A stretch of 63,351 nt of DNA from a virus, in the IMG/VR virus record IMGVR_UViG_3300045988_110668; one strand, 5' to 3'. The notes below the pieces were generated by a model. The model did not search any database and had not been told where the DNA came from. It saw only the letters and a program-made list of their open reading frames with translations. Below, one piece after another: positions 7,321 to 41,784 of the stretch (its first letter is position 1; the number at the start of each line of letters is the position of its first letter). The translations under genes and the position numbers were made by a program.

Positions 7321-7358
7321 ACAATTTTCGTAGTGTGCCCTTTCACACACAGGAATAT

Positions 7359-7475: not shown

Positions 7476-7613
7476 GCAAGTTTTTATTATTTGGCAAACA
7501 ATTATTTTATTTTTCTCTCGACGGTGTTTTATTGTTCTATTTTTCCTAAACTTTTTGTATAACCCCCGTGATTTTTCTAACAATGCACACCAAATATTAT
7601 TCTATTCTTCGTA

Positions 7614-7799
7614 TTACGGATATATGTATTCGACGAAAACACCCTTGTATTCTTCTCCCTCTTTTGCATACCAAATACTGCCATCCTCTTTTTTGAATAG
7701 AACATACACTGATTTCTCCATTTTAGCCGCCTTCTTTGCGATTTCCCGCATTTTCTCTTCAGAAGCAAGCCTCTTATTGCCTTGACACCAACAACTCAT
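7614..7799 (-). CDS. Hypothetical protein (61 aa)
   Basis: Track ORF; ATGA overlap with the upstream gene. Confidence 0.45.
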   Translation of the reverse strand: MSCWCQGNKRLASEEKMREIAKKAAKMEKSVYVLFKKEDGSIWYAKEGEEYKGVFVEYIYP

Positions 7800-8326
7800 A
7801 ATACGCCAAATTTTGAAAAGTAATTCTTAAGCGCCGGGTTAAGTACATATTTGAGGAAGTATTCACGGGACTTCACTCCTACTCCCAATATGGCACTCCC
7901 ATACTTCCTTTCTATATCCGGGCCTATGTCGCTTCCTCTTGTTTCTATCTTCAATCCCTTTGAGGACGAAGAGACACGTATAGAATCATAGAATTCGCCT
8001 GTTATAATGAGGTTGGGAGTATAAATATCTCTAGCCGGATAGCCCTGGAAAGAGGGAGTAGGTTTTGTTATTCTCTTCTTCATCTTAGCGTACCCCTTTG
8101 CATTGTTCTTCCACTTCCCGGCTTCATCAGTAGCAAACCAAGGGTCATTCAAGTAAGTCGGTCGCAATGGTTTATCATTCCCATTTACACCTGAATACAA
8201 CTGCTCTGTCACAAATTCCCTAACAAGAGATTTGTTCGAATCCATGGTATTTTGAATCTCTCCTTCAAACCCATTAACAAAAGCTGTCACATTATCCAAT
8301 GCTTCTTTTATTGTAGCCATATTCAA
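7796..8326 (-). CDS. Hypothetical structural-module protein (176 aa)
   Basis: Track ORF in the slot between the tail tube and the tape measure. Confidence 0.6.
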   Translation of the reverse strand: MNMATIKEALDNVTAFVNGFEGEIQNTMDSNKSLVREFVTEQLYSGVNGNDKPLRPTYLNDPWFATDEAGKWKNNAKGYAKMKKRITKPTPSFQGYPARDIYTPNLIITGEFYDSIRVSSSSKGLKIETRGSDIGPDIERKYGSAILGVGVKSREYFLKYVLNPALKNYFSKFGVL

Positions 8327-12740: not shown

Positions 12741-14040
12741 TAGAGTTATTAGTTTTTAATTCACCTTTTGGATTATCAGGATCAATATCTATAAACTTTG
12801 CTAGCTCATTTCTGGATTCATCAAGAGTTATTTGACCTTTTTCAACTAACTGAATTAAAGAAGAAGCCATTTTCTGAAATGCAGAAGAAGATGATGATTT
12901 ATCCTTTTGAAGGCAGTCTACATGGGTATAATCCAGCTTTATAAAAACACCCTTAGGGCAAATAGCGTCCGTTAAAGCTTCTGCAACTTTTTCAGAATCA
13001 GGAATAATAAGACCTTGATAAGCTGATTTTTCAGCTATGCTTTTATTGTCATATTTAGATTCATCAAATAAGCTATAATCAACTCCTACCGCATTGCATA
13101 TCTTTCTGCTACATCGTTCATCCTCTTCATGAAGTTTAAGCTGGGAGGAATCATAATTCAAAGGAATCCAACCAAGTTTTATCTTTGATGTCAGAATTGG
13201 GAATTTATTGAGAATGCCATATTTTTCTTTTAGTTTAGATTCCAATATTTCTTTTTCCTCTGGTGTCATAACTTGATTACCCATCTTATCGGTATAATCA
13301 GAATAAATAATACCTTTGGGACCGCCATTTACAATTAATTGATAACTGGCTGTCATCGCTGCAATCCAGTTATTAACCGGCATAGAAAGGGAGTCTGTAA
13401 CAGAAGAGAATTCTATGTCTCGATTGGAACCATTAACATTTGCAGAACTATCGTAAATTACAAAGTAGTCTTCGTCTGATAATTCTTCCCGCAAACCATC
13501 CCACTCCAAGTATACGCTAGAAACAATATCCTTTATATCATACTGGCGAAATAGTTTCCCAGAAGAAACCATGTGAAATATCTGTGCAGGTATGATATAC
13601 ATTGCGAGTGGCAATGATTTTTTTGCTGCTCTTACAGTGAAAATGGGACAATATCCGAAAAGTTTAAGAGACATCTCAATCTCTTTTAAAAAACCAACCC
13701 TTGTTTGAAGTGGATTAGGACGTGACAACAACTCTCTAATGTCGTTATATCCCTCTTTTTCATTACCTTCCTTATCTGTGACATATATTTTCCCATTCGC
13801 AAAAAGAGAACCTATTTTATTTACAACAGTAGAAAACGGGGTACATACAAGAAGAGAATCTGCTTTATCCCTATCCAATGTTAGATCATAATCATTTTTA
13901 ATTTTACCAGATGGCGAGAAGAAATTGGAAAGATACCAGAAATTCCCATTAGAATCCTTTTCAATAGCCTTTACTGTCTCTCTCATGGAGGGAACAGATA
14001 TATTAATCCTTTTTTGAAACCAATTTCCTAATTTAGACAT
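12727..14040 (-). CDS. Portal protein
   Basis: ~437-aa ORF upstream of the protease. Start chosen at MSKLGNWFQKRI (ATG 14040). Confidence 0.65.
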   Translation of the reverse strand: MSKLGNWFQKRINISVPSMRETVKAIEKDSNGNFWYLSNFFSPSGKIKNDYDLTLDRDKADSLLVCTPFSTVVNKIGSLFANGKIYVTDKEGNEKEGYNDIRELLSRPNPLQTRVGFLKEIEMSLKLFGYCPIFTVRAAKKSLPLAMYIIPAQIFHMVSSGKLFRQYDIKDIVSSVYLEWDGLREELSDEDYFVIYDSSANVNGSNRDIEFSSVTDSLSMPVNNWIAAMTASYQLIVNGGPKGIIYSDYTDKMGNQVMTPEEKEILESKLKEKYGILNKFPILTSKIKLGWIPLNYDSSQLKLHEEDERCSRKICNAVGVDYSLFDESKYDNKSIAEKSAYQGLIIPDSEKVAEALTDAICPKGVFIKLDYTHVDCLQKDKSSSSSAFQKMASSLIQLVEKGQITLDESRNELAKFIDIDPDNPKGELKTNNSIENG

Positions 14041-21441: not shown

Positions 21442-22206
21442 TTACACAAATAGCGATTGCTGGATACGTGATAACACAAATTTATTCGCATCAGCAAAGA
21501 ACTTTTTTTTAATCTCAAATCCGTATGCCCTGCGTCCCAACTGGGCAGCAGCTAATAAGGTAGAACCGCTTCCGGCACATGGATCAATAACGACATCACC
21601 TTTGTCGGTGAATATCTCTATCAGTCTACGAAGCAAAGGAACCGGCTTTTGCGTGCTATGAACCTTCGGAGTTTCATTGTCCAACACCCAATCAAAGCAA
21701 TTGAAGATCATCCGACCATCGTTGTTAAACTTTGGAAGTTTATCGCGGTAAAGCAACAATCCATATTCACAATTGCCGACTATCTTCATATTGGCTTTCA
21801 AGACTTGCGCTGAAAAGTTCTTTCTGAATACAAGATTGATGTAATTATTCAGCCCATATCTTTTACCCAGTTCAATATACCGGAACTGGTCTTCAAACTC
21901 GCAAAATATTATCATGCAAGGCGCCTTGCCTTTTTCCTTGGGTTCCTTTACAAGCATCTGGGAGCAGAAGTGCATAAACTCGGCAGGGCGAAAATCTTTA
22001 TCGGTATCAAAGAATTGTTTGCCGGCTAATTCGCTTTCCCCGTTCTTGTTATCTCCGTCCACATACCATGAAGGGTTAGAAGCATAAGCACTATTGCCTA
22101 AATTGTAAGGGACATCAGCTATAATTAACTGGGCTTTTGGGATTCCATAAGAACGGAAATTTTGGAAATGGTCATTGAATAACTTAGGTTTTATATTTTT
22201 ATCCAT
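21442..22206 (-). CDS. DNA methyltransferase (N6/N4 beta-class)
   Basis: IIADVPYNLG (DPPY-like motif IV) comes first, then C-terminal TQKPVPLLRRLIEIFTDKGDVVIDPCAGSGST (motif I). Confidence 0.8.
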   Translation of the reverse strand: MDKNIKPKLFNDHFQNFRSYGIPKAQLIIADVPYNLGNSAYASNPSWYVDGDNKNGESELAGKQFFDTDKDFRPAEFMHFCSQMLVKEPKEKGKAPCMIIFCEFEDQFRYIELGKRYGLNNYINLVFRKNFSAQVLKANMKIVGNCEYGLLLYRDKLPKFNNDGRMIFNCFDWVLDNETPKVHSTQKPVPLLRRLIEIFTDKGDVVIDPCAGSGSTLLAAAQLGRRAYGFEIKKKFFADANKFVLSRIQQSLFV

Positions 22207-22745
22207 TTTAATCCTCCTGATGTTTTACTCCTGCCATTTAATACTTGAGATATAGCCCCTTTACATAAACCTTTTGATTTTTCTGCTAATCTTACAGATT
22301 CAAAAACCTCGCCTGTGTTAACACATTTTACCATTGTATAAGAATGTCTCTTTTGATGTAATTCCCTATATGCATGTTTTAAATTATCACTTCGGCTACA
22401 CCACTCTAAATTATCAACATGGTTATTGCATTTATTACCATCTTTATGATTAACTTGTTCAAGGTTTAAAGGGTTATTTATAAAGGTTTTTGCAACAAGT
22501 CTATGAACTGTGAAAGCCTTAGTTTTATTCCCTATTCTTAGCCAAACGATACAATATCCATTATTTTGAATACCGTATTTAATAATTCTTCCTTTATGTA
22601 TACATGTATGTCCATTTTTACAATATCTTTTTCTATCAACAGATTTTATTCTACCAAAAGAAGATGCTTGGTATGAATAGTCTGTTTCAGGAATAATTTT
22701 CCAAACTTCTTGGAAATGGTCATTATATAGTTCTATATCTTTCAT
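22191..22745 (-). CDS. HNH homing-type endonuclease
   Basis: SFGRIKS..NGYCIV..VHRLVAKTFINNP..VNHKDGNKCNNHVDNLEWCSRSDN. Confidence 0.8.
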   Translation of the reverse strand: MKDIELYNDHFQEVWKIIPETDYSYQASSFGRIKSVDRKRYCKNGHTCIHKGRIIKYGIQNNGYCIVWLRIGNKTKAFTVHRLVAKTFINNPLNLEQVNHKDGNKCNNHVDNLEWCSRSDNLKHAYRELHQKRHSYTMVKCVNTGEVFESVRLAEKSKGLCKGAISQVLNGRSKTSGGLKWIKI

Positions 22746-22762
22746 TTCTATTCTGTTTTTAA

Positions 22763-23755
22763 TTATTTCTTTATTACAACTGCCATAGTACTAACAGCCG
22801 TTCCGCTTTCCTTGAACTCACCGGCTCCGATTTCAAAAACTTCTCCATGAACTTTTTCCAACCATTCCCGGAACTCAACACATTTCTTTTCAGACGCGAA
22901 TTTCCAATGCCGGCTGGTTATAACCGCAAGAATTCCACCTTCTTCCAAGCGTTCATACATAAGTCTTACATGGTCAATATCCTGATTACCGGAAAATGGA
23001 GGATTAGCAATAATCTTAGTGTAATGCCCTACACTATCTTTCGTAAAATCTTCATCAAGCAATATTACGTTATCAAGTGTATGAAGGAACTCCCTGTTTT
23101 CCGGCATCAGTTCATAGCATTCAACTGTTACTGACGGGCACGACCGATGAATCGCTTTTATCAGAGCACCACGTCCGGCACTTGGTTCAAGTACGGTATC
23201 TTTTTCGTGAATTCCACCGGCAAGCATTACCAACCAGTCTGCAATATCAGCAGGTGTTTCAAAGAACTGAAAATCTTTTTGCAAATCGCATCGCTTACCT
23301 TCTTTCAAGATGGAGAACACACGTTCCGGATTAAAAGGAAATGTGAATCCCTGTATCTTACCTCCCTGCCATGAGCCGCCAGCTTCTTCTATCCATTTTT
23401 TAGCTTCAGCATAGGATTTCTTATTGAATTGTACTTTCGGAAGTTTAAGAACACTATCCTCAAGAGTACAATGCTTCAGTATCTCTTCCACATTCCATTT
23501 CTTACCTTCATCAGCCTGGCTCTTCCTTTCATCAACCGGAGCGCCCGGCGCTAACAGTGAGGATATTTTCGTAATAACCATATTACTCGCATCCATAAAA
23601 GTATTAACACAGAAAAGCGCTTCCATAAGAAATTCAGTATCAACATATCCGGCAGCGTCATAAACATCTATGCCTTCAGTCATATCCGACAATTCATTGA
23701 GCTGGGTTACACTACCACGTAACGTTTTTATTAAAGTCTCTTTGTTGTTCATCAT
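22763..23755 (-). CDS. N6-adenine DNA methyltransferase (gamma-class order)
   Basis: VLEPSAGRGALI (motif I) then IIANPPFSG (motif IV), with a ~170-aa N-terminal extension. Confidence 0.75.
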   Translation of the reverse strand: MMNNKETLIKTLRGSVTQLNELSDMTEGIDVYDAAGYVDTEFLMEALFCVNTFMDASNMVITKISSLLAPGAPVDERKSQADEGKKWNVEEILKHCTLEDSVLKLPKVQFNKKSYAEAKKWIEEAGGSWQGGKIQGFTFPFNPERVFSILKEGKRCDLQKDFQFFETPADIADWLVMLAGGIHEKDTVLEPSAGRGALIKAIHRSCPSVTVECYELMPENREFLHTLDNVILLDEDFTKDSVGHYTKIIANPPFSGNQDIDHVRLMYERLEEGGILAVITSRHWKFASEKKCVEFREWLEKVHGEVFEIGAGEFKESGTAVSTMAVVIKK

Positions 23756-24818
23756 AACTTTTTTGTAAATAAATTCTTGTTGTATCTACACTACCATGAC
23801 CAAGAAGGTCTGCTAATTGAATTACATCTTTGGTTTTCTTCAGGAACATTTTAGCAAAGAAGTGCCGGAAGGCGTGAGCGTGCATTTTTTTCGAATCGAT
23901 ACCACAATGTTTACCCCATGCTTTTAGGTGTTGGGAAAAACCTCTCTGAGTCAACGGTCCGAATCTCCCAACAGCAAGAGTACCGGACTTGCCTGTCTCC
24001 TTTATATAGTCCTTCACTTCCCTCTGCAATTGCTTCTGGAAAAAGAAACGCCGATACTTGTTCCCTTTCCCTTTCAAAACAACTTCGCCGATCGCTATAT
24101 CCTCCCACGTGAATTGCTGAAACTCCGAGAGACGAGCTCCTGTAGTACCCAATACCTTAATAAAGAAATAGTAATCCTTGTTGTTTTTTGTTTTCAGATA
24201 CTCTAGTAACCGATTGTATTCATCTTCGGTAGGAACATTAGAAATATCTAGCCTACGTTTCATTTTAGGTCTCTTCAATTCTATCGGCTTTTTCATCCAT
24301 TTAGAGAACTTTTCCAAGGCAGTAATCCTTAAACGGATGGTTTGCGGAGACAATGTTTTTTCTTCTAATGTACGTATAAACCTCTTACAGTTTTCCATAT
24401 TTATATTGTTAGCGTATGCAAAATATTGCTTCAAGGATGTGTGATAAATATCCACTGTATGCGAAGAGTAATCATTGTTATCGGTTAGCCATATTATAAA
24501 ATCATTTAACAACTTTCTGTTCTTTTCCGAAATGGTGTCAAGTCTTTCTAAAGCTTTTACTTTCTTTTCTTGACGGTTATATCCGATTTTAAGGTGAAAC
24601 AATAAATCACAAATAGCTTCACTCATCAATGGATAACGTGCCCCAATATTGGCATTTTCACGCTTATAAGCCAGATAGCCACGACGATTGATTTCTTCGG
24701 CACTTTCAAGAAAATCAGTTACATATTTGATATATTTCCCAATAGTATCATAAGTTCTTCTTGTTGTATACAAGTAGCTAATATAATCAGTTAAGATTTT
24801 CTGCCTTTCATTATTCAT
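23712..24818 (-). CDS. Tyrosine recombinase (Xer/integrase family), second copy in this genome
   Basis: C-terminal HAHAFRHFFAKMFL...LLGHGSVDTTRIYL catalytic signature. Confidence 0.8.
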   Translation of the reverse strand: MNNERQKILTDYISYLYTTRRTYDTIGKYIKYVTDFLESAEEINRRGYLAYKRENANIGARYPLMSEAICDLLFHLKIGYNRQEKKVKALERLDTISEKNRKLLNDFIIWLTDNNDYSSHTVDIYHTSLKQYFAYANNINMENCKRFIRTLEEKTLSPQTIRLRITALEKFSKWMKKPIELKRPKMKRRLDISNVPTEDEYNRLLEYLKTKNNKDYYFFIKVLGTTGARLSEFQQFTWEDIAIGEVVLKGKGNKYRRFFFQKQLQREVKDYIKETGKSGTLAVGRFGPLTQRGFSQHLKAWGKHCGIDSKKMHAHAFRHFFAKMFLKKTKDVIQLADLLGHGSVDTTRIYLQKSYDEQQRDFNKNVTW

Positions 24819-25126
24819 GATTATTTATTTCTTTTTGATTTAATCTTAATAGGATTATTTTTGGTCCCTGTTCCAAAACTACTTAACGGAATCTTATGTA
24901 TCCGTAACCAGTATTTAAACCTTAGAATTTCATCTAATATAATTTTATTCATTTCATTATTGTTTTACTCTATTTGACTTCTACTTTAAACGGAAGAGGA
25001 TAACCGCCAATCAAACGATTGTAGACATCTTCCCAGCAGTACGGCATATTGGCATTATTTGCCAATTCCTTTGCTATCTCTTGTAATCTTTCTTTGCTCA
25101 TTACTATTCTGTTTTAAATTAAACTC

Positions 25127-26032
25127 CTATTCACAAAGTCCATGATAAAGACTCATACAGCTATACCCACCTTCTGGCTCAAACATATCATCCATACCGA
25201 CATCGTTACGGTTCACATACTCGAAAACTTCCTGTACTGTTGGATAAGTCCTATTTTTACAGAAACGATCAGGGATGTAACCGGGTGAGAAGAAAGACGA
25301 GCCTTTTGGAGTTTCTTCTTTCATCCTTTGCTCTGCATCTATCAAGCGGTTACGCCCGAACTCTTCTTGTGAAATGAGTTTGACTTCCTGCTTTCGGCAC
25401 ATAATACAAGGATAGCAACCAACACGGGAAAATCCACGAAAATACAAAGGATTTGGCTTTTGTCCGGCAGATAAGATATGATTTATTACTTCTTGTGCCG
25501 ACCACTGAAAAATCGGACGGGAAACGCTTGCATCATAGTGTTCACACCATTTAAGTACATCTTTTCTACGATAATCCTGCTTCCATACTTCAACAATCTT
25601 TCCTTTGCGATTCTTTTTAATGCGTTCGTAATACTCCCCAAAGTAATTGCATTCATAGGGAAGTTTAGCACGCTCTTCACTTTCCTTTGCCCGGATGCCT
25701 TGTATAATCACGCAAGGTTCAGTAAGTGAGAGAATGTAATCAATCATCGGTTTAATTTTCAATTCCGAAGTACAAAACCTTCTTTGGGAAGACGGGAACC
25801 GGGAGCGCTTGATAGACATATCTACAAAATCAGTATATTTCTTGCTTCTCAAAACTACTAATTTAACATCAAGCTGTTTGCACAGATCACTAATATGTTG
25901 ATAGGTTTCGGGATGCTCCCAACCAGTATCACAGAAAACAGCTTCTATTTTATCAGCTCCGTATTTATTGGTAGCCTGGATTAAACAGGCTTGCGAATCC
26001 TTACCACCGGAAAAACTTACTATTATTTTCAT
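25127..26032 (-). CDS. PAPS-reductase / PP-loop ATPase family protein
   Basis: N-terminal IIVSFSGGKDSQA PP-loop. Confidence 0.75.
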   Translation of the reverse strand: MKIIVSFSGGKDSQACLIQATNKYGADKIEAVFCDTGWEHPETYQHISDLCKQLDVKLVVLRSKKYTDFVDMSIKRSRFPSSQRRFCTSELKIKPMIDYILSLTEPCVIIQGIRAKESEERAKLPYECNYFGEYYERIKKNRKGKIVEVWKQDYRRKDVLKWCEHYDASVSRPIFQWSAQEVINHILSAGQKPNPLYFRGFSRVGCYPCIMCRKQEVKLISQEEFGRNRLIDAEQRMKEETPKGSSFFSPGYIPDRFCKNRTYPTVQEVFEYVNRNDVGMDDMFEPEGGYSCMSLYHGLCE

Positions 26033-26202
26033 TGCATATAGACTTTTTTATTTTCATCTTCAAAATATACTGTTTCATACTTATTGCGATTAAAAGCAAT
26101 AGGGAGGTTCTCTATCGGACAATATCCGAGAAACTCATACACTATTCCATTTTTGCGAATAGAGAATAGGTCACCTATTTTTAAATTCTTGATTTCGCTC
26201 AT
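26029..26202 (-). CDS. Small hypothetical protein (57 aa)
   Basis: My translation: MSEIKNLKIGDLFSIRKNGIVYEF... Its TGA overlaps the ATG of the PAPS-reductase gene. Confidence 0.4.
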   Translation of the reverse strand: MSEIKNLKIGDLFSIRKNGIVYEFLGYCPIENLPIAFNRNKYETVYFEDENKKVYMQ

Positions 26203-26213
26203 TTTTATATTTG

Positions 26214-26447
26214 TTATGTTTTAACTTCTTTGTATATTACATCAGGGTGATTCTCACAATATTTTATAATCTTTTCGTTTCCTTCCTGCCAACAAATAGG
26301 CACAGAGGCTAAACTTCTTACATTTTTTGCTAAATCGCAATCGTTGCAATTTTCTTTCCCCTTAACTTTGATTCGTTCATATTTCTTGCCATCTATAATT
26401 ATTTTACTCATTTCTATTCTTGTTATACGCAAATCCTTGATAATCAT
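26214..26447 (-). CDS. Small Cys-rich hypothetical protein (77 aa)
   Basis: Track ORF. Confidence 0.5.
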   Translation of the reverse strand: MIIKDLRITRIEMSKIIIDGKKYERIKVKGKENCNDCDLAKNVRSLASVPICWQEGNEKIIKYCENHPDVIYKEVKT

Positions 26448-26468
26448 TCAAGAACTTGCAAGGTTTAA

Positions 26469-27440
26469 TCAATTATCTAATTCTTCTATCGCTTTGAAAA
26501 TTTCAATAATCACATGCGGAACTATGGCGTTTCCATATCCTTTAATTGATTCCTGTCTCCATTTTGTGAAAGGAATGGTAAGGTTGTCCACATCAAAGGG
26601 AAGCCCATCATTTCCTCGACAAACAGGGGATTGAGTTGGGAAGTTTTCCCAGTTTGATCGGATATGTAATGATTCAGTTGGGATTTTCTGCTTGTACCGT
26701 CCTTTCTCTCCTTGCAGCATCCGTTGTGATGGCAACTCGCAGTAGGAGTAGGTAACAACCCCATCTTTGCTGCTAAAGCAATTGTTGGACGTTCCTTTGC
26801 ATTGGGTGAGCGGCTCTTGTTTATTCTTCCCGTTCCGGCATCTATCGAGGTCGGAGTGGGGAGCATCATTCCTGTGAGCAACAAACCACACTCTGTCTCT
26901 TCTGTGGGGCGCTCCGACGGCACAAGCCGGAATAAGCAACGGTTGGACGGAATATCCTTCTCGTTCAAGGTCTTTACAGATGGTTTCGACGACATACTCT
27001 TGTCGTAACAATACTCTTTTTCGGTTATCTTCTCCGAAAAGAGCGGTTTGGCTTCCCATTTCAGTCTCCTCACCGGACTGAACCATTGTGAGGATTCCAG
27101 CAACGTTTTCACCAATAACCCAAGTGGGTCGGATTTCGCGTATTGCTCGTAACATTTCTGGCCAGAGGTAACGGTTATCATCCGCTCCCTTTCTCTGACC
27201 TGCAAGGGAGAAAGGCTGGCAAGGAAATCCGCCTGTGAGGACATCGATTCTTCCTTTCCATTGACTAAAGTCTGTCTTTGTAATATCTTCATAATGTTCT
27301 GAATCAGGAAACCAATATTTTAGTATCTCGTTGCAAAAAGAGTTTATCTCACAGTGAAAGGCATTTTTCCAGCCCATCCATGACGCTGCAACGCTAGGGG
27401 CATCAAAGCCGCTAAATAAAGAACCGTGAGTTTTATTCAT
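26469..27440 (-). CDS. dcm: DNA (cytosine-5) methyltransferase
   Basis: Motifs in order: SLFSGFD (I-like), GGFPCQPFS (IV), ENV (VI), APHRRDRVW (VIII), GNAIVP (X). Confidence 0.85.
   Translation of the reverse strand: MNKTHGSLFSGFDAPSVAASWMGWKNAFHCEINSFCNEILKYWFPDSEHYEDITKTDFSQWKGRIDVLTGGFPCQPFSLAGQRKGADDNRYLWPEMLRAIREIRPTWVIGENVAGILTMVQSGEETEMGSQTALFGEDNRKRVLLRQEYVVETICKDLEREGYSVQPLLIPACAVGAPHRRDRVWFVAHRNDAPHSDLDRCRNGKNKQEPLTQCKGTSNNCFSSKDGVVTYSYCELPSQRMLQGEKGRYKQKIPTESLHIRSNWENFPTQSPVCRGNDGLPFDVDNLTIPFTKWRQESIKGYGNAIVPHVIIEIFKAIEELDN
26522..27292 (-). other. 256-codon ORF in the +1 frame, fully nested in dcm (candidate overprinted gene or frameshift isoform)
   Basis: Track ORF. It is 2.4 times longer than any other same-strand nested ORF in the window. 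Its product carries LPTPT x2 and LNPLFVEEMMGFPLMWT. Confidence 0.4.
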
Positions 27441-30444: not shown

Positions 30445-30852
30445 TTATTTTTCTGCTAAGTAACCATTCACAACCTCTATAAACTCCTCCAAAGACCGGC
30501 AGACAACATACTTCGCTCCTATACTATCAAATTCCTTTTGATAGGCTTTTTGGTGATCGCTTTGTCTTCCTGTCTTAGTCTTTAATTCAATTCCCATAAA
30601 AGGATAATACTTGTTAGGGATCAACAGAAGTAAGTCAGGGAAACCGGCACGTACTCCCATCTGTTTAAACTTTGCAGCTTCGATAGCATTCCGTTTACCG
30701 CCATTAGGAGAATGATGCAACCTTAGCCTATATTGAGGATATTCCAAATCGAACCAGCAAACACAAGCTCTTTGCAAATCATCCTCTTCATGTTTTGGCT
30801 TCTTGCGGATATTCTTACCGCAGTACTGGGCTTTCATTTCTTCGAATGTCAT
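30445..30852 (-). CDS. VRR-NUC domain nuclease
   Basis: ..HHSPNGGKRN..GVRAGFPDLLLLIP..MGIELKTKTGRQSDHQK.. Confidence 0.75.
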   Translation of the reverse strand: MTFEEMKAQYCGKNIRKKPKHEEDDLQRACVCWFDLEYPQYRLRLHHSPNGGKRNAIEAAKFKQMGVRAGFPDLLLLIPNKYYPFMGIELKTKTGRQSDHQKAYQKEFDSIGAKYVVCRSLEEFIEVVNGYLAEK

Positions 30853-30853
30853 A

Positions 30854-31003
30854 TCAACCTTTCTCCTTACTCCTTTGGAGTTTCTTTCTAGTTTTACGAA
30901 TCATATCTTCATCTCTCAAATTATATCCCCTAATGAGGATTTCTGACGTTTTCAAGCACCGGACTATCGTCTGGTATTCTTGTTTGGTGATTGTTATTTT
31001 CAT
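30854..31003 (-). CDS. Small hypothetical protein (49 aa)
   Basis: My translation: MKITITKQEYQTIVRCLKTSEILIRGYNLRDEDMIRKTRKKLQRSKEKG. Its stop abuts the VRR-NUC ATG, and its ATG lies 2 nt after the tRNA-like element. Confidence 0.4.
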   Translation of the reverse strand: MKITITKQEYQTIVRCLKTSEILIRGYNLRDEDMIRKTRKKLQRSKEKG

Positions 31004-31004
31004 G

Positions 31005-31193
31005 TGGGACAAGCAGGAGTCGAACCTGCACAAGTATCGTCTGCTTTCTCGTTTTCGTCCGTAGATTGGTTATCCTACGATTTTTAAACTACTCAACCAG
31101 TTACTAACAGCACCGGTCTTGATGACATCCATTCTTATGTACACTTAGAATTTCCGTTCATTTAGTCTTAGCGCCCTATGACCATTTTGTCCC
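31005..31193 (-). ncRNA. tRNA-like RNA (acceptor stem plus canonical T-arm, ~157-nt non-tRNA interior)
   Basis: 5' GGGACAA pairs perfectly with 3' TTGTCCC. T-arm is GCAGG-TTCGACT-CCTGC. A -7-like box TAGCTTTG lies at 31248-31241. Confidence 0.5.
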
Positions 31194-31245
31194 ATGTTCG
31201 CCCGCCAATCTTCACAGACAGGCTGGGGTAAAAAGGTTAACAAAG

Positions 31246-31440
31246 CTATCTTAACAGCTCACTCTTGCGGATTATAGCTCTACCAGTGACGATAGTATTC
31301 TCCGTATTGTGAGATAATGTACTTTGCTTAATTCCTATCTGATCCTCGGACAAATGGCGAAATATGCCCGTTACCGAACTGAAATAATAGTTCCGCTTTT
31401 CGAAGATCAGGTAGACATGGATTACTTTAGTTCTACGCAT
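31246..31440 (-). CDS. Hypothetical protein (64 aa)
   Basis: Track ORF. Confidence 0.4.
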   Translation of the reverse strand: MRRTKVIHVYLIFEKRNYYFSSVTGIFRHLSEDQIGIKQSTLSHNTENTIVTGRAIIRKSELLR

Positions 31441-33456: not shown

Positions 33457-34122
33457 TTAAGATAGTTTGCGGATAATCTCACCGCCATACGAGTTTTTAG
33501 TCAGTTCTATAAACTCATATACAGTAAACCTATCATTGTCTACATCTATACCTTTGTCCTTACAAAAAGCTTCTCTTCCAGCCTTGCAACTCTCAGTGAG
33601 TACATGATGCCATATAAACAAGTCTTTAGCAGAATACTTTCTAGAAAAGTCAGAAAAATGCTCTTTAAACTTAAGAATCCTTTCCTCTTCTGTACTATCA
33701 TCATAAAGCTTTTCTCGCAAAGATTCAAATGCCTCATGTAGAGTATTACCATGAGAAATTTGATTGTTCTCTTTTGCTATAAAACAGGGAGTAAGAGATA
33801 AATCAGACTGAAGGATAAAACCTTTTGCGATATTACCCTTTACATTTGTGATAATAGTAGGTATATTATCTACTACATAAATAGAATTCCCATTTATGGA
33901 TTTTATGCCATAGCCATAGCCAGAGCCAGAGCCAGAGCCAGAGCCATCGCCATCGCCAGAGCCATAGCCAGAGCCATAGCCATCGCCAGAGTCATAGCCA
34001 GAGCCAGAGCCATCGCCATAGCCATAGCCAGAGCCAGAGCCATAGCCATAGCCAGAGCCATAGCCATAGCCAGAGCCAATACTTAGAAACTGCTTTATTC
34101 TATCTTCCATTACCTTGCCCAT
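33457..34122 (-). CDS. Protein with a ~60-aa (G/S/D)-Y low-complexity N-terminus and a globular C-terminal domain
   Basis: GSGYGYGSGYGYGSGSGYGYGDGSGSGYDSGDGYGSGYGSGDGDGSGSGSGSGYGYG. Confidence 0.7.
   Translation of the reverse strand: MGKVMEDRIKQFLSIGSGYGYGSGYGYGSGSGYGYGDGSGSGYDSGDGYGSGYGSGDGDGSGSGSGSGYGYGIKSINGNSIYVVDNIPTIITNVKGNIAKGFILQSDLSLTPCFIAKENNQISHGNTLHEAFESLREKLYDDSTEEERILKFKEHFSDFSRKYSAKDLFIWHHVLTESCKAGREAFCKDKGIDVDNDRFTVYEFIELTKNSYGGEIIRKLS
33907..34077. repeat. Degenerate hexanucleotide tandem repeat (GCCAKM)n, ~28 units
   Basis: gccatagccagagccagagcc...; it encodes the Gly-Ser/Tyr/Asp tract. Confidence 0.9.
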
Positions 34123-35221: not shown

Positions 35222-35293
35222 TGGACGTAACTGGATTCGAACCAGTAATAAACCAACTGGGCAGGTAATCTCATGCACTGCCACTTTACGCCC
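35222..35293 (-). ncRNA. tRNA-like RNA, 72 nt (acceptor plus T-arm, no cloverleaf)
   Basis: 5' GGGCGTA pairs with 3' TACGTCC (one G-U). T-arm is ACTGG-TTCGAAT-CCAGT. Internal hairpin GGCAG-N13-CTGCC. Confidence 0.5.
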
Positions 35294-35382
35294 GTTTGCC
35301 TGTATCACGTCAGATACAGGACTTAATCGAAACACGAATTTTCACACATAAAACAGCTATTCTCCCGAACCGCATACCTATA

Positions 35383-35569: not shown

Positions 35570-35651
35570 TGGACGGAACCGGAGTCGAACCGGTCTCACG
35601 GAATATTGGTGCACCTCACCGCAGTTTCAGCCATGATATACACATCCGCCC
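35570..35651 (-). ncRNA. tRNA-like RNA, 82 nt (acceptor plus T-arm, no cloverleaf)
   Basis: 5' GGGCGGA pairs with 3' TCCGTCC (one G-U). T-arm is ACCGG-TTCGACT-CCGGT. Contains an internal palindrome GGTGCACC. Confidence 0.5.
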
Positions 35652-36078
35652 GATTAATTAAAAAAGTGCACTATCTTCACAGACCGTACACTATACAACA
35701 CACAAACACAAAATAAAACACTACATAAAAGTGCCCTACCCGATTCTCACTACCGGATGTCAGTTTCAAACTGTCAGTAGGGCTATATTACAATCAGCGT
35801 ACGGACGCCTATTCCCGTTTTCTTACTGATAAAGACGATGTTTTTCAGACTGATTTTTTCGATATATTACTTACTCACGTTGCTTCCTTCCGCTCATATC
35901 ATCGCTGGTTGGCTATTACGCTATACTCCGCCTCGGCTATAATGCTTATTAGCGCAGGCTACTTTAACGTGCCCTGAACACGGCTTCATTTTTGAGGGTT
36001 AAGCCTCCCATCCCGAATTAGGATTCATCGGTTTACCGTTATGCTCTGAAAGCGTTTCGCTCGCTTCTTCCGTAGGTT
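35652..36078 (-). ncRNA. ORF-free, relatively GC-rich segment with many local helices (candidate structured ncRNA; the alternative is an origin region)
   Basis: No ORF of 60 aa or more in any frame from 35194 to 36078. Helices include GCCCTAC/GTAGGGC (35733-39 / 35777-83) enclosing CAGTT/AACTG. Confidence 0.3.
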
Positions 36079-36264
36079 CTAACCTAACAGAGATTCGTAA
36101 AATTTTATACTTTCCAAAAAGGAATCTATAATTTCACTTTTAGTTTTATTACTTTTCGCCAATTTCCTAACAGTGGATTCATCATAAGTTTCTAAGTCTT
36201 TCACATATTTACGAAGAAAGACTAATTGATTATTTATATATTCTATATCCATAATTACCTCCAA
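36079..36264 (-). CDS. Hypothetical protein (61 aa)
   Basis: Track ORF. Confidence 0.5.
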   Translation of the reverse strand: MEVIMDIEYINNQLVFLRKYVKDLETYDESTVRKLAKSNKTKSEIIDSFLESIKFYESLLG

Positions 36265-38646: not shown

Positions 38647-39981
38647 TTAATACACGTTATTATTAAACACATAATCAATAACTTTGGAATTAGCCTCATT
38701 TATAGAACTAAAATCCTTCTTGATATAAATTTCAGTTACCCTCATGGATTCGTCAACATGATTTAAGGCGGAATGGACTACATACTTGTCTATTTTAAGA
38801 TCATTAGCCGCAATAGTAGCCCATGAATGGCGGGCAGCATAAAATTCCAAATCTTCTATGATGTCACCGTTCTTTTTTGACTTATTTATATCGTTAATGC
38901 TCTTCTCAATCTCCTTAAGGCCCTTATTGATAGCTTTATTAAAGTTCTTATAATCGGCATACATTTGATAGAATCTGAACACTCTTTTCCCTGTATGATC
39001 TTTGTATTTCTCCAGCAGATCGGAAATAAACGGGGGTACATCTACATGAATTTCCGCGTTATCTCTACGTCTAGTTCTTGTTTTCTCTCTGAAATACTGA
39101 ATCGTATTATTGCTTATCTTATCACAGCTATATAAGTCAGCAGAATTCATTCCTATCAGACAGAAAGACAAGATAAATACATCTTTTGCAAGATTATATC
39201 TGCAATTTTGCTCTACATTTTTCCTGGCGTTATGCCGCATTATGTAGGGTAAATCATAAATTGCTTTTATTGTTTGCGGTGATAATGCCCTTTTTCTTGT
39301 AGTCTCTTCTTTGGGAACCTTAAACTTCATGAATGGAGACCAAGGTATTAGTATTACTCCTTTCTCTTCATCGTTATATTTTAATTTAGCCTCCTTATGC
39401 AAATGCCGAATACATGCGGTATAGTTAGATAACATTCTATTGGTTGTGATACGCTTCCCTTTTTTTATAGCTTCTAAATTGGATTTCTCCTTTTTTTCTA
39501 TCAGAAACTTCGAATAATTAACCAGCATTGAATAGGTTATTTCAGAAATAGATATAATATCTCTTTTCATAAAGTTGATTAATGACTGAAGCATGCCTTT
39601 GTAATTAGAAGCAGTTCCATTTTTACCTTGTTTTTCAAGATTGTTTATATAGTCCTTTGCAAAAGATACAAAATCAATATCTTTCTTTTTGTCTTCTTCC
39701 TTTTGGTTCAAATAATCGACCAATTCATCTATTGACATATTATCTATAGTAAGAGCGATCTTGCTACATTTATTACGATAATAATTGATAATCTCATTGC
39801 ACTGATCTATCTTTTCCTGATTTTTTATCTTGAAATTCTTGACCGTCAAATCTTCTTGGTTTACATATATAGAGGTTGGCAACCTTCGAACAACCCTGTT
39901 ATGAGTTATCCGAATTTTTACATTCCAGGTCTTATCTTTTCTTTTTTGGTGCTTTTGCACTTCTGCTTTAAATGTAGCCAT
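38647..39981 (-). CDS. int: Tyrosine integrase (Bacteroidetes phage/CTn type)
   Basis: Start at MATFKAEVQKHQKRKDKTWNVKIRITHNR. C-terminal ARHSWATIAAN...HSALNH...TEIYI. Confidence 0.85.
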   Translation of the reverse strand: MATFKAEVQKHQKRKDKTWNVKIRITHNRVVRRLPTSIYVNQEDLTVKNFKIKNQEKIDQCNEIINYYRNKCSKIALTIDNMSIDELVDYLNQKEEDKKKDIDFVSFAKDYINNLEKQGKNGTASNYKGMLQSLINFMKRDIISISEITYSMLVNYSKFLIEKKEKSNLEAIKKGKRITTNRMLSNYTACIRHLHKEAKLKYNDEEKGVILIPWSPFMKFKVPKEETTRKRALSPQTIKAIYDLPYIMRHNARKNVEQNCRYNLAKDVFILSFCLIGMNSADLYSCDKISNNTIQYFREKTRTRRRDNAEIHVDVPPFISDLLEKYKDHTGKRVFRFYQMYADYKNFNKAINKGLKEIEKSINDINKSKKNGDIIEDLEFYAARHSWATIAANDLKIDKYVVHSALNHVDESMRVTEIYIKKDFSSINEANSKVIDYVFNNNVY

Positions 39982-40015
39982 AATTTCATATGTATTTTTT
40001 ATGCTTTTCTTTTTC

Positions 40016-40033
40016 GAGCAACAATAGAGCAAC
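40016..40033 (+). repeat. 18-bp direct repeat GAGCAACAATAGAGCAAC (putative integrase arm site, copy 1)
   Basis: Identical to 40282-40299. Confidence 0.85.
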
Positions 40034-40170
40034 AATTTCAAGCAAAAGTAGCGTTTTAAATCAAAAGTAACAAAATAAAAGGGCTATAAATCATTTTAGA
40101 CTTATAACCCTATTTATTTATAATCATCTGAAAATCAACACAAACAACTAATAATCAGACCTTATTTTTG

Positions 40171-41235: not shown

Positions 41236-41784
41236 TTATATAACTGATTTAAATTCGGTATGTTCATAAAAACGAGATTGAGTAGCATTACAAAACAAGG
41301 TATTTGTTTTGTAATTAATTGAATTAAGGTTCCTTAAAATCATATCATTTTGGGCAGTAATCTTTTCATCAATCTCATCTATTTTTCTTTCACATTTCAA
41401 TGAAACATCATGTTGTCCAATTCCGTATGCTAATAATTGATTAACATAAGAATTGAGGGAAACACCATTCATTTTAGCTTGTTGTATCAACGAAGAATGA
41501 ACCCATGAGGATGTTCTAACTGAAAATGTACCACTTGAATTTTGCTCCTCATTTACAACTTCAGGGATAGGCTCTCCTTTTTCATACAACATTTCTATAA
41601 AAGCATCTTTTTCTTCAATAAAACTATTTAAAGCAGATACTTTATCTTCTCCTATCCCATGACAAGCATTTAAACCAAGCTCATTGCAGTATGCAACATA
41701 CCACTTTTCGCCATCAAGTTCTTCTTTTTTAATAATAACATTGTACTCCAATGATTTGTAGTACTGTAAATCTTTTCGTGACAT
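41236..41784 (-). CDS. hicB: HicB-family antitoxin with a ~60-aa C-terminal extension
   Basis: YNVIIKKEELDGEKWYVAYCNELGLNACHGIGEDKVSALNSF..GEPIPE, then SGTFSVRTSSWVHSSLIQQAKMNGVSLNSYVNQLL (RHH-like), then extra residues. Confidence 0.75.
   Translation of the reverse strand: MSRKDLQYYKSLEYNVIIKKEELDGEKWYVAYCNELGLNACHGIGEDKVSALNSFIEEKDAFIEMLYEKGEPIPEVVNEEQNSSGTFSVRTSSWVHSSLIQQAKMNGVSLNSYVNQLLAYGIGQHDVSLKCERKIDEIDEKITAQNDMILRNLNSINYKTNTLFCNATQSRFYEHTEFKSVI

What the first reader, a model, noticed from the sequence alone, without database searches (positions are those of the whole stretch)
31005..31193. 189-nt tRNA-like RNA: perfect acceptor stem and canonical T-arm around a non-tRNA core
On the minus strand, 5' GGGACAA (31193-31187) pairs perfectly with TTGTCCC. 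That strand follows a perfect T-arm GCAGG-TTCGACT-CCTGC and is itself followed by a discriminator A (31005).

About 157 nt, rather than about 40, separate the acceptor 5' strand from the T-arm. I cannot draw a D-arm or a 7-nt anticodon loop. The interior contains local hairpins such as CGTAG-N10-CTACG.

A -7-like box TAGCTTTG (31248-31241) sits about 48 nt upstream. A 49-codon ORF starts 2 nt after the 3' end.

Two more elements with the same signature lie at 35570-35651 and 35222-35293. Three independent acceptor complements of 7 nt are very unlikely by chance.

Possible roles: an RNase P / RNase Z processing punctuation mark for early mRNAs, a decoy for tRNA-targeting defences, or part of a larger ornate RNA.
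Basis: seen in the sequence. Interest (0 to 1): 0.7.

Follow-up and report, generated by a model that had tools for sequence, protein, structure and literature searches.

The report
Phage tRNA-shaped RNA in swappable slot
A gut Bacteroidales phage carries a real 189-nt RNA gene with the ends and elbow of a tRNA but no anticodon, and related phages put at least eleven different tRNA-shaped RNAs in exactly the same genomic slot, which looks like an undescribed phage RNA system, perhaps tRNA decoys.

Summary
On the minus strand, 31193-31005 has a perfect 7-bp acceptor stem, a GCAGG-TTCGACT-CCTGC T-arm and discriminator A. Two smaller elements (35651-35570, 35293-35222) share this signature. Three such signatures occur in the window, against none in 500 shuffles.

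It is not an ordinary tRNA, an intron-containing tRNA or a tmRNA. ARAGORN, Rfam and 1455 simulated splicings all fail.

I read it as a class-II-like cloverleaf:
- a D-arm-like hairpin;
- a 40-nt hairpin in place of the anticodon arm, with an 11-nt loop holding the palindrome UGUACA;
- a large variable arm whose interior exists in two unrelated versions.

The main new result is comparative. A conserved leader hairpin with a GUGA loop marks a slot found 74 times in related gut phages. Every copy is followed at once by a tRNA-shaped body, and there are 11 different bodies, swapped exactly between G1 and A73. The first 84 nt are 98.8-100% identical where flanking genes are 88-92% identical.

Best reading: an early-expressed, RNase P/Z-processed tRNA mimic, probably a decoy for a tRNA-binding factor. 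The gene is well supported; the function is inferred. The closest precedent is T4 species 1 RNA, whose function I know of no assignment for.

The parts
31005..31193 (-). E1 RNA body, 189 nt, G1 to discriminator A73 (allele 'A')
   Evidence: Sequence. It is the same unit that is swapped in related phages. 54 copies in two variants occur in IMG/VR and gut metagenomes.
31187..31193 (-). Acceptor 5' strand GGGACAA (G3-C70, not G:U)
   Evidence: Pair probabilities 0.74-1.0.
31163..31184 (-). D-arm-like hairpin: UGGUC / GACUA with loop AUAGGGCGCUAA (contains GGG)
   Evidence: Folds (pair probability 0.8-1.0). The A30G change in L006 keeps the pair as U.G.
31122..31161 (-). 40-nt hairpin replacing the anticodon arm: AUGA..UCAU outer stem, AUUCU/AGAAU inner stem, 11-nt loop AAGUGUACAUA with the palindrome UGUACA
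   Evidence: Folds. It lies in the 5' 84 nt that are 98.8-100% identical where the flanks are 88-92%. There is no 7-nt anticodon loop.
31031..31121 (-). Oversized variable arm, tentatively closed by CAAG/CUUG one nucleotide before the T-stem
   Evidence: The constrained fold equals the MFE for variant B (-45.0 kcal/mol; pair probability 0.54). For variant A it is 2.4 kcal/mol worse than the MFE and has pair probability 0.0. The helix never varies, so covariation cannot test it.
31042..31109 (-). Swappable interior 'module A' (68 nt; hairpins ACCGGU..ACUGGU and CGUAGG..CUACG). Allele B replaces it with an unrelated 38 nt.
   Evidence: The A/B alignment scores no better than shuffles. Module A is 92.6-100% identical, about the same as the flanks.
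31013..31029 (-). T-arm GCAGG-UUCGACU-CCUGC
   Evidence: the only stretch that matches any Rfam model. G49-C65 changes to U-A on both sides in five loci, and one locus (L110) has only the 5' change, leaving an unpaired U.C.
31005..31012 (-). Acceptor 3' strand UUGUCCC plus discriminator A. The next base is C, and no CCA is encoded.
   Evidence: A73 followed by C is seen after every body listed.
31201..31227 (-). Leader hairpin: outer stem, inner GUCU-GUGA-AGAU hairpin with a GNRA loop. It ends 7 nt before G1. The window copy has a 4-nt deletion in the outer stem.
   Evidence: z -2.2 here; -4.1 for the common form. The motif precedes nearly all tRNA-like genes of the phage group.
31241..31248 (-). 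Bacteroides-type -7 box TAGCTTTG, a possible promoter. It overlaps the stop codon of ORF 31246-31440.
   Evidence: The block from GCTTTG onward is conserved even where the upstream gene differs. Weak on its own. No -33 TTTG was seen.
30854..31003 (-). 49-codon ORF that begins 2 nt after A73, followed by a VRR-NUC nuclease gene (30445-30852)
   Evidence: The closeness of the ATG is not conserved in allele-B loci.
35570..35651 (-). E2, an 82-nt tRNA-like RNA: G3:U70, no D-arm, long hairpin with conserved loop UGAAACU
35222..35293 (-). E3, a 72-nt tRNA-like RNA: G3:U70, 5-bp hairpin with a 13-nt loop in place of the D and anticodon arms
35665..35692 (-). Leader hairpin of E2 with the same inner GUCU-GUGA-AGAU motif, followed by U6
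   Evidence: z -3.3.
35298..35322 (-). Leader hairpin of E3 (CCUGUAUC..GAUACAGG, then CAAAC): the second leader type
35733..35783 (-). DUF2693-FD RNA (Rfam RF02926): a 7-bp terminal stem with a 5-bp/7-nt-loop hairpin stacked on its 3' strand, 81 nt upstream of E2
   Evidence: 56.5 bits against a gathering score of 44.5.

Best explanation
E1 is a real gene of a temperate Bacteroidales siphovirus. It encodes a stable, non-decoding RNA built on a tRNA frame.

Shown:
- It lies in the early region downstream of the presumed lysis-lysogeny switch, among recombination and anti-repressor genes.
- A conserved leader hairpin with a GNRA loop precedes it.
- The unit conserved and exchanged between phages runs exactly from G1 to A73.
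- The acceptor stem, T-arm and a D-arm-like hairpin are kept, and the anticodon arm is replaced by a highly conserved 40-nt hairpin.
- The variable arm is enlarged and exists in two unrelated versions.
- Related phages place at least ten other tRNA-shaped bodies in the same slot.

Inferred:
- The primary transcript is cut by RNase P at G1 and by RNase Z, or exonucleases, near A73-C74. The CCA-adding enzyme then completes the 3' end. The result is an abundant RNA with the L-shape and elbow of a tRNA.
- This RNA acts in trans as a tRNA mimic. It occupies a host or rival tRNA-binding factor that reads the acceptor/T-arm/elbow. The replaced anticodon domain gives specificity or makes the RNA an inert substrate.
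- The many alleles, the early expression and the position among accessory genes fit a counter-defence or host-takeover decoy best.

The confidence given below applies to the whole statement. That E1 is a functional tRNA-like RNA gene I put at about 0.85. The decoy mechanism I put at about 0.3.
For: Signature beyond chance: 3 observed against 0 in 500 shuffles.

Slot test that does not select for pairing: the leader motif alone finds 74 copies. 73 are followed at once by a body with a 7/7 acceptor stem and a 4-5/5 T-stem. The 74th (L049), read by eye, has a 6/7 acceptor stem and a 5/5 T-stem. There are 11 different bodies, flanked by the same '...GAACAT' leader and, for several of the bodies, the same 'CATGAAAATAAC...' trailer. 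Other slots behave the same way: 20/20, 41/41 and 21/24.

Compensatory G49-C65 to U-A change in the T-stem.

The E1 5' 84 nt are 98.8-100% identical in genomes whose adjacent genes are 88-92% identical.

The fold has a D-arm-like hairpin and high pair probabilities.

Some class-II-framed alleles in the same slot score above Rfam's tRNA gathering threshold (39.2 and 36.5 bits). The slot therefore holds tRNA derivatives.

Every body has A73 followed by C.

Early-operon context: an integrase lies upstream of the region. In the cultured phage BS-TP2 the order is repressor, DUF2693 gene, DUF2693-FD, then tRNA-like genes.

A precedent exists: T4 rnaC has a T-arm and paired ends.
Against: - There is no expression, processing or binding data of any kind.
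- E1 itself is a narrow family: 16 distinct sequences in two variants, all from human gut. Covariation inside the core is almost absent, and two single sequences carry changes that break a pair (G39C, U63C).
- The high identity of the 5' 84 nt could reflect a recent sweep or transfer of the cassette and not purifying selection.
- The CAAG/CUUG closing helix never varies and is not favoured in variant A.
- No tRNA-targeting defence gene or tRNA enzyme was found in the window to point to a partner.
- Canonical tRNAs share some slots with tRNA-like bodies. That fits a cis-processing role equally well.
Confidence: 0.5

Rival explanations
1. Cis-acting processing or stability element ('tRNA punctuation'). 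Only the parts recognised by RNase P and RNase Z are selected. Cleavage separates early transcripts, sets the 5' end of the downstream mRNA (the AUG lies 2 nt after A73), or caps the upstream mRNA with a stable structure. The middle of the RNA is free to drift, expand or be replaced.
For: The acceptor stem, T-arm and D-arm are the constant parts, and the middles differ completely between alleles. Module A evolves about as fast as the flanking genes. Canonical tRNAs and tRNA-like bodies are interchangeable in one slot. E2 and E3 have no -7 box of their own and must be cut out of a longer transcript. The ATG directly follows E1 in type-1 trailers.
Against: The 40-nt anticodon-arm substitute and the D-arm are more conserved than the neighbouring coding DNA. 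The closeness of the ATG is lost in allele-B loci, where the ORF starts about 25 nt downstream. G3:U70 is kept in 7 of 20 acceptor frames while positions 4-7 covary, and RNase P and RNase Z do not need G3:U70. Three to four such elements within 4.8 kb exceed what punctuation requires.
Confidence: 0.22
2. An aminoacylated tRNA mimic. After CCA addition a host synthetase that ignores the anticodon charges the RNA. The charged RNA then acts like a tmRNA acceptor domain on stalled ribosomes, as a non-ribosomal aminoacyl donor, or as a sink for a synthetase.
For: Many sister elements carry only anticodon-independent identity marks. G3:U70 with A73, the alanine identity, is present in 7 of 20 frames, including E2 and E3, and G.U pairs are rare at other acceptor positions. 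Many slot alleles have a leucine-type D-arm GGCGGAAUUGGUAGACGC with A73. That AlaRS charges minihelices and that LeuRS does not read the anticodon is textbook knowledge, not tested here.
Against: E1 has G3-C70 and an atypical D-arm, so it has no recognisable identity set. No tag reading frame is conserved: the frame that is open in the window stops after 5 codons in L011 and after 4 in variant B (read from the sequences). The tmRNA model matches only the T-arm (7-9.8 bits). The 61-nt methionine-frame derivative lacks the anticodon that MetRS needs.
Confidence: 0.1
3. A tRNA scaffold that carries cargo. The frame only provides processing and nuclease resistance, as in engineered tRNA scaffolds. 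The active part is the inserted domain, acting as an aptamer, an antisense segment, or a self-association module through the palindromic UGUACA loop.
For: One frame occurs with different inserts: GGUGGUA frames of 116, 123, 151, 156, 191 and 201 nt, and E1 modules A and B. The 6-nt palindrome in the 11-nt loop never varies. The inserts are mostly closed by a helix that ends 1-3 nt before the T-stem (read from the sequences).
Against: No complementarity above chance to the phage's own transcripts: the longest match is 11 nt, found twice, where about 2.9 are expected. No insert matches a known Rfam motif at gathering level. Host targets could not be searched.
Confidence: 0.12
4. A decaying tRNA pseudogene, or an ordinary tRNA interrupted by an intron.
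For: The frame clearly derives from tRNA genes, and sister slots hold canonical tRNAs.
Against: ARAGORN with introns finds nothing at E1. None of 1455 single-deletion versions of E1-A gives a tRNA, and the nine weak calls for E1-B depend on module B alone. The stems are perfect in all 54 copies, with one compensatory change. The body is more conserved than the neighbouring genes. Allele exchange is exact to the base.
Confidence: 0.03

Closest known systems
Bacteriophage T4 species 1 RNA (rnaC; AF158101 70908-71046) and species 2 RNA (rnaD)
   Same: A phage-encoded small stable RNA (139 nt). It has a canonical T-arm (CCGGG-UUCGAAU-CCCGG) directly followed by a 3' strand that pairs with the 5' end. 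It has a large non-tRNA interior and lies among tRNA genes. From my own knowledge, its function has not been established.
   Different: No sequence similarity. The T4 acceptor pairing is imperfect (5 of 7, with two U.U). No leader hairpin, no alternative alleles in one slot and no swappable module are known for T4. The host is a proteobacterium. Only rnaC shows the T-arm; rnaD does not.
Class II (long variable arm) tRNAs, Rfam RF00005
   Same: A 7-bp acceptor stem, a 5-bp T-stem with a UUCGANU loop, A73, a D-arm-like hairpin with GG, and an extra arm inserted just before the T-stem. Sister alleles in the same slot reach the Rfam tRNA gathering score.
   Different: No 5-bp/7-nt anticodon arm. 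Length 189 nt. Neither ARAGORN nor the Rfam tRNA model detects it. It cannot decode.
tmRNA (RF00023), tRNA-like domain
   Same: An acceptor stem and T-arm that bracket a large non-tRNA interior, with A73. E2 and E3, but not E1, also have G3:U70.
   Different: E1 has G3-C70. It has no conserved tag frame, no P2 helix joining the two ends, and about half the length of a tmRNA. Only the 17-nt T-arm aligns (7-9.8 bits against a gathering score of 47).
DUF2693-FD RNA (RF02926)
   Same: The same phages, the same early operon and the same strand. It has a 7-bp terminal stem with a 5-bp/7-nt-loop hairpin stacked on the 3' strand, which is acceptor/T-arm minihelix geometry. One copy lies 81 nt upstream of E2.
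   Different: 49-51 nt. The loop AGUGAGA is not a T-loop. E1 does not match the model.
Engineered tRNA scaffolds for recombinant RNA (from my own knowledge, not checked here)
   Same: A tRNA whose anticodon region is replaced by foreign structured RNA, so that the cell processes and stabilises it.
   Different: Those are man-made. Here the arrangement is natural, polymorphic and in a phage.

Membership tests
tRNA (RF00005) | 7-bp acceptor stem closed by the 5' and 3' ends, plus a discriminator base | tested here: met
   GGGACAA/UUGUCCC pair 7/7, with A73.
tRNA (RF00005) | 5-bp T-stem with a 7-nt UUCRANY loop adjoining the acceptor 3' strand | tested here: met
   GCAGG-UUCGACU-CCUGC. One compensatory change is seen.
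tRNA (RF00005) | D-arm (3-4 bp stem, loop with G18G19) two nucleotides after the acceptor stem | tested here: inconclusive
   A 5-bp hairpin with a 12-nt loop containing GGG sits in the right place, after 'AA'. Its size and sequence are atypical, and tertiary pairing cannot be tested here.
tRNA (RF00005) | Anticodon arm: 5-bp stem, 7-nt loop with U33 and a purine at 37 | tested here: not met
   A 40-nt hairpin with an 11-nt loop takes its place. ARAGORN finds 0 genes. None of 1455 deletion variants gives a tRNA.
tRNA (RF00005) | Reaches the covariance-model gathering score (29 bits) | tested here: not met
   No tRNA hit even at E<=10 on a 281-nt stretch.
tmRNA (RF00023) | G3:U70 alanine identity pair | tested here: not met
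   E1 has G3-C70. E2 and E3 do have G3:U70.
tmRNA (RF00023) | Conserved tag-peptide reading frame with a resume codon and a stop | tested here: not met
   Frames differ between variants A, B and L011 (read). ARAGORN reports no tmRNA.
tmRNA (RF00023) | Covariance-model score (gathering 47 bits) | tested here: not met
   7-9.8 bits, over the T-arm only.
Intron-containing tRNA | Removing one contiguous insert restores a canonical cloverleaf. Bacterial tRNA introns are group I or group II. | tested here: not met
   ARAGORN -i finds nothing at E1. The deletion scan is negative for E1-A. No intron family appears in Rfam. The insert is too short for a group I intron (my own knowledge).
Phage tRNA-like stable RNAs (T4 rnaC type; informal class, no model) | Phage-encoded; T-arm plus paired termini around a non-tRNA interior; lies among tRNA or tRNA-like genes | tested here: met
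   This is a shared architecture only, with no sequence homology.
Phage tRNA-like stable RNAs (T4 rnaC type; informal class, no model) | Accumulates as a discrete RNA processed by RNase P, with a CCA end | not testable with these tools
   Needs RNA end mapping and enzyme assays.
DUF2693-FD (RF02926) | Match to the 49-nt covariance model | tested here: not met
   Only 35733-35783 matches, not E1.

The most novel reading that the evidence does not exclude
These gut Bacteroidales phages keep several leader-marked 'tRNA-like RNA slots'. Natural tRNA scaffolds are exchanged there as exact G1-to-A73 cassettes. Some are alanine-type (G3:U70) or leucine-type acceptors without an anticodon. Others, like E1, carry a conserved hairpin with a palindromic loop and a replaceable module. 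Together they would form a diversifying arsenal of tRNA mimics that neutralise tRNA-directed host defences or toxins, or redirect aminoacyl-tRNA-using enzymes. That would be an RNA counterpart of protein anti-defence islands.
Probability: 0.25. Interest if true: 0.85.

Novelty: new variant of a known kind. Interest (0 to 1): 0.62.

Why it matters
Phage tRNA genes are usually explained by codon supply, or more recently as replacements for tRNAs cut by host defences. These RNAs cannot decode. Yet they are kept, expressed from the early region, and exchanged as exact cassettes among prevalent human-gut phages.

If they are decoys or aminoacylated mimics, they would reveal a new layer of the phage-host conflict fought through tRNA shape, in the dominant gut phylum. 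They would also give a function to a class of RNA whose first example, T4 species 1 RNA, has none that I know of. They would be a natural counterpart of the tRNA scaffolds used in RNA engineering.

Practically, standard annotation misses all of them. ARAGORN finds none in the window, and none is annotated in the cultured phage BS-TP2.

Tried and rejected
- Ordinary tRNA or tmRNA: ARAGORN finds 0 genes. Rfam gives no hit at gathering level or at E<=10 beyond the T-arm.
- Intron-containing tRNA: ARAGORN -i gives only a spurious chimera that joins a stretch upstream of E2 to the E3 T-arm. The deletion scan is negative for E1-A.
- tmRNA-like tag: a 13-codon frame is open in the window but is not conserved in L011 or in variant B (read).
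- Chance: a loose definition is not significant. A strict one is.
- Host tRNA with the same 3' half, or a prophage in species-representative genomes: no match to the 24-mer.
- Wider E1 family: an exact 25-mer in IMG/VR, a 26-mer in metagenomes, nhmmer over 1.58 Mb of related loci and blastn against GenBank phages find only the two variants.
- Homology between modules A and B: not above shuffles.
- Antisense targets in the phage: none above chance.
- A large structured RNA upstream of DUF2693-FD (35784-36254): z-score -0.96, not pursued.
- tRNA-related enzymes in the window: none among about 50 ORFs scanned.
- Literature: no paper describing such elements was found. The paper behind DUF2693-FD does not discuss that motif in its main text, and its supplements are not held.
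- A formal tool-based covariation count on the E2 family was dropped because MAFFT misaligned acceptor position 7. Pair tables were computed by script instead.
Full report
**1. The observation**

Reading the minus strand confirms each sequence statement.
- GGGACAA (31193-31187) pairs 7/7 with TTGTCCC (31012-31006).
- That 3' strand directly follows GCAGG-TTCGACT-CCTGC (31029-31013) and is followed by A (31005).
- 157 nt lie between the acceptor 5' strand and the T-stem.
- The hairpin CGTAG-N10-CTACG, the box TAGCTTTG (31248-31241) and the 49-codon ORF starting at 31003 are all present.
- The two further elements are at 35651-35570 (E2, 82 nt) and 35293-35222 (E3, 72 nt).

A loose definition of the signature is not significant: 4 observed against 0.9 expected. 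I then required a G+C-rich T-stem and a 7/7 acceptor stem with at least 4 G-C pairs. The window has 3 such signatures, and 500 dinucleotide-preserving shuffles have none.

**2. What it is not**

- ARAGORN finds no tRNA or tmRNA in the window.
- With introns allowed, ARAGORN reports only a chimera joining a stretch upstream of E2 to the E3 T-arm.
- Rfam at gathering level finds one family in the whole window, DUF2693-FD at 35783-35733.
- At E<=10, even on a 281-nt stretch, only the 17-nt T-arm of E1 aligns, to the tmRNA model at 7-9.8 bits.
- I simulated splicing by removing every contiguous segment that leaves 66-95 nt (1455 variants). None of the E1 variants is called a tRNA. The nine weak calls for the sister variant depend on its private module.
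- A 13-codon frame in the interior is open in the window. It is closed after 5 codons in L011 and after 4 in variant B (sequences). There is therefore no tmRNA-like tag.

**3. Anatomy**

Thermodynamic folding gives the following plan, in RNA positions:
- acceptor stem (1-7 with 182-188);
- AA;
- a D-arm-like hairpin UGGUC/GACUA whose 12-nt loop contains GGG (10-31, pair probability 0.8-1.0);
- A;
- a 40-nt hairpin (33-72) with an AUUCU/AGAAU top stem and the 11-nt loop AAGUGUACAUA, which contains the palindrome UGUACA;
- a large region (73-163);
- U;
- the T-arm (165-181);
- the acceptor 3' strand and A73.

The large region can be closed by CAAG/CUUG. In variant B this costs nothing and has probability 0.54. 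In variant A it costs 2.4 kcal/mol and has probability 0.0.

This is the plan of a class II tRNA with the anticodon arm replaced and the variable arm enlarged. The closing helix never varies, so I treat it as tentative.

**4. Relatives of E1**

I searched with an exact 25-mer in IMG/VR (22 contigs), a 26-mer in metagenomes (23 contigs, all that are labelled are human gut), and nhmmer over 1.58 Mb of related loci. These give 54 copies and 16 distinct sequences in two forms. The 189-nt form is the one in the window. The 158/159-nt form replaces RNA 85-152 with an unrelated 38 nt, and the alignment of the two modules is no better than shuffles.

The first T-stem pair changes from G-C to U-A in five loci, and one locus (L110) carries only the 5' change, which leaves an unpaired U.C. 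Inside the core, variation is too scarce for a covariation test. Two single sequences each break a pair (G39C, U63C).

The first 84 nt are 98.8-100% identical in genomes whose adjacent genes are 88-92% identical at the DNA level. Module A, at 92.6-100%, evolves about as fast as the flanks. The D-arm and the 40-nt hairpin are therefore either under strong constraint or have spread recently.

**5. The slot**

This is the main new result. I fetched 80 related loci through the neighbouring 284-aa gene and scanned them with a simple acceptor/T-arm script. The scan showed about 25 clusters of tRNA-shaped genes. Many share a frame but have entirely different middles. For example, GGTGGTA frames with a leucine-type D-arm GGCGGAATTGGTAGACGC occur in versions of 116, 123, 151, 156, 191 and 201 nt.

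That scan selects for pairing, so I repeated the test using only the upstream leader motif. The motif occurs 74 times. In 73 copies, the 7 nt immediately after it pair 7/7 with the 7 nt that follow a T-arm whose stem has 4 or 5 of its 5 pairs. In the 74th copy (L049, read by eye) the acceptor stem has 6/7 pairs and the T-stem 5/5. There are eleven different bodies in this one slot:

| Body | Length (nt) |
|---|---|
| E1-A | 189 |
| E1-B | 158/159 |
| GGGCGTG, G3:U70 | 98 |
| GGGGAGG | 104 |
| GGAGAGG | 114 |
| GGTGGTA | 123 |
| GGAGATG | 144 |
| GGGGCGT | 153/154 |
| GGTGGTA | 156 |

The leader ends in ...GAACAT|G1. The same trailer A73|CATGAAAATAAC... follows several of the bodies, and others have different trailers. 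The exchanged unit is thus exactly the predicted mature RNA. This is the strongest indirect evidence for ends at G1 and A73.

Three other leader types behave the same way, with 21/24, 20/20 and 41/41 copies followed by a tRNA-like body. A fourth, methionine-type leader holds three things: canonical 74/75-nt tRNA-Met(CAU) genes, 61-nt derivatives that lack the anticodon arm, and a 162-nt class-II-like body (13 of 18 copies).

Two slot-1 alleles reach Rfam's tRNA gathering score (39.2 and 36.5 bits). Every body listed has A73 followed by C.

**6. The leader**

The hairpin has an outer stem whose sequence varies (GCCUGCC/GGCGGGC, GUGUACG/GUGCAC, CCCCGCC/CGCGGGG). Its inner motif is conserved: GUCY-GUGA-RGAU, a short stem capped by a GNRA loop. 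The pair next to the loop covaries, U-A against C-G. z-scores range from -2.2 to -4.2. The window's E1 copy has a 4-nt deletion in the outer stem.

E2 has the same inner motif, followed by U6. E3 has a different hairpin followed by CAAAC.

The -7 box is weak evidence on its own (88 matches against 74 expected). However, the block from GCTTTG onward is conserved even where the upstream gene differs. E2 and E3 have no box of their own and are presumably cut out of the early transcript.

**7. Context**

The window is most of a temperate siphovirus genome. Nearly all genes are on the minus strand. It encodes terminase, portal, capsid and tail proteins, two integrases, DNA methylases, Ant/Bro-type proteins, a RecE-like exonuclease and a VRR-NUC nuclease.

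Relatives occur as prophages in Bacteroides, Dysgonomonas, Prevotella and Tannerella genomes. The Dysgonomonas prophage carries a 137-nt tRNA-like gene.

In the cultured phage BS-TP2 the order is repressor, divergent DUF2693 gene, DUF2693-FD RNA, then tRNA-like genes that the record does not annotate. By analogy, E2, E3 and E1 lie in the immediate-early operon. No tRNA-modifying, ligating or charging enzyme was found in the window.

**8. Identity marks**

Among 20 distinct acceptor frames, G.U occupies position 3:70 in seven. These include E2, E3 and the 69-, 78-, 80- and 98-nt families. G.U pairs are rare elsewhere, and positions 4-7 covary with Watson-Crick pairs.

G3:U70 with A73 is the alanine identity set, and a minihelix is enough for AlaRS. 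LeuRS likewise ignores the anticodon. Both statements are established knowledge that I did not test here. Many sister RNAs therefore look chargeable without an anticodon. E1 is the exception: it has G3-C70 and an atypical D-arm.

**9. Mechanism**

The following are shown:
- a conserved, exactly bounded tRNA-framed gene;
- a leader hairpin;
- an early-region location;
- alternative alleles in one slot;
- a strongly conserved anticodon-arm substitute;
- a replaceable module.

The following are inferred:
- RNase P and RNase Z processing and CCA addition give a stable L-shaped RNA;
- this RNA acts in trans as a mimic that engages a factor reading the acceptor/T-arm/elbow;
- it most plausibly works as a decoy in phage-host conflict, given the allelic diversity and the accessory-gene neighbourhood.

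Rivals:
- **Cis-acting processing element only.** The variable middles support it, and so does the fact that canonical tRNAs are interchangeable with tRNA-like bodies. The conservation pattern and the G3:U70 conservation weaken it.
- **Aminoacylated mimic.** More likely for E2 and E3 than for E1.
- **Scaffold presenting cargo or a dimerisation loop.** I found no antisense target in the phage.
- **Pseudogene or intron-containing tRNA.** Rejected.

**10. Comparison and novelty**

The nearest precedent is T4 species 1 RNA. In the T4 record it shows a perfect T-arm and a 5/7 acceptor-like pairing around a non-tRNA interior, and I know of no assigned function.

E1 fails the membership tests for tRNA, tmRNA and DUF2693-FD. 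I found no paper describing anticodon-less tRNA-like cassettes in Bacteroidales phages. That search covers open-access text only.

I rate E1 as a new variant of a known kind, namely phage tRNA-like stable RNA. The slot system around it is the more novel part.

Noticed in passing
window 35733-35783 (-): A DUF2693-FD RNA (RF02926, 56.5 bits) lies 81 nt upstream of E2. Its shape has the geometry of a tRNA acceptor/T-arm minihelix: a 7-bp terminal stem with a 5-bp/7-nt-loop hairpin abutting the 3' strand, followed by A then C. It may therefore belong to the same system as the tRNA-like genes.
   Followed up: partly
window 31201-31227, 35665-35692 (-); L057, L068, L071 and others: A conserved leader hairpin ends 5-23 nt before G1 of nearly every tRNA-like gene. 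It has a variable outer stem and an inner GUCY-GUGA-RGAU GNRA-capped stem with a covarying closing pair. It has no Rfam match. It could be a processing, protection or protein-binding signal.
   Followed up: partly
window 35570-35651 and 35222-35293 (-); L024, L034, L044, L057 and others: E2, E3 and four other unrelated short families (69-98 nt) all keep G3:U70 plus A73 while the rest of the acceptor stem covaries. They look like alanine-accepting RNAs without an anticodon. The 69-nt family is a near-normal tRNA frame whose anticodon loop is cut down to 4 nt.
   Followed up: partly
L058:2923, L069:3234, L071:3053, L078:5896, L093:3612, L097:8644: 61-nt derivatives of a phage tRNA-Met(CAU) gene in which the whole anticodon arm is replaced by CUUUAG or similar. 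They sit behind the same leader as the intact 74/75-nt gene in sister phages.
   Followed up: no
window 31139-31149 (-), RNA 45-55 of E1: The 11-nt loop AAGUGUACAUA contains the invariant 6-nt palindrome UGUACA flanked by purines. This is the layout of a kissing-loop dimerisation site. No test was possible.
   Followed up: no
all loci, first base after A73: The base after the discriminator is C in every genuine element listed (ACA, ACU, ACG, ACC), and CCA is almost never encoded. This hints at a shared 3'-end maturation rule.
   Followed up: no
window 33457-34122 (-): This early gene encodes a 221-aa protein whose first ~75 residues are almost pure (G/S)Y(G/S)/D repeats (GSGYGYGSGYGYGSGSGYGYGDGSGSGY...). 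This is a low-complexity Gly/Tyr/Ser domain, and the underlying hexanucleotide repeat produced spurious microRNA hits in Rfam.
   Followed up: partly
L131 (Bacteroides phage BS-TP2, PQ571275) about 7290-7345, 7515-7703, 7981-8062, 13799-13906: A cultured, prevalent temperate phage carries a second DUF2693-FD-like hairpin and three tRNA-like genes, none of them annotated in the record. One is about 190 nt with an A+U-rich acceptor stem UAAAAGG/CUUUUUA. This gives a ready experimental system.
   Followed up: partly
L128:9499-9635 (Dysgonomonas sp. 511 prophage): A 137-nt tRNA-like gene (GGGATAG...CTATCCCA) lies next to the homologous recombination gene. The phenomenon therefore extends beyond Bacteroides.
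   Followed up: no
window 21442-27440 (-): A cluster for DNA modification and mobility. It holds an N6/N4 DNA methylase, an HNH/NUMOD4 endonuclease, a tyrosine integrase (23712-24818, a second one besides 38647-40041), a PAPS-reductase/QueC-like protein and a C5 cytosine methylase.
   Followed up: no
window 41236-41784 (-): A HicB-family antitoxin-like protein is encoded in the phage. No HicA partner was looked for.
   Followed up: no
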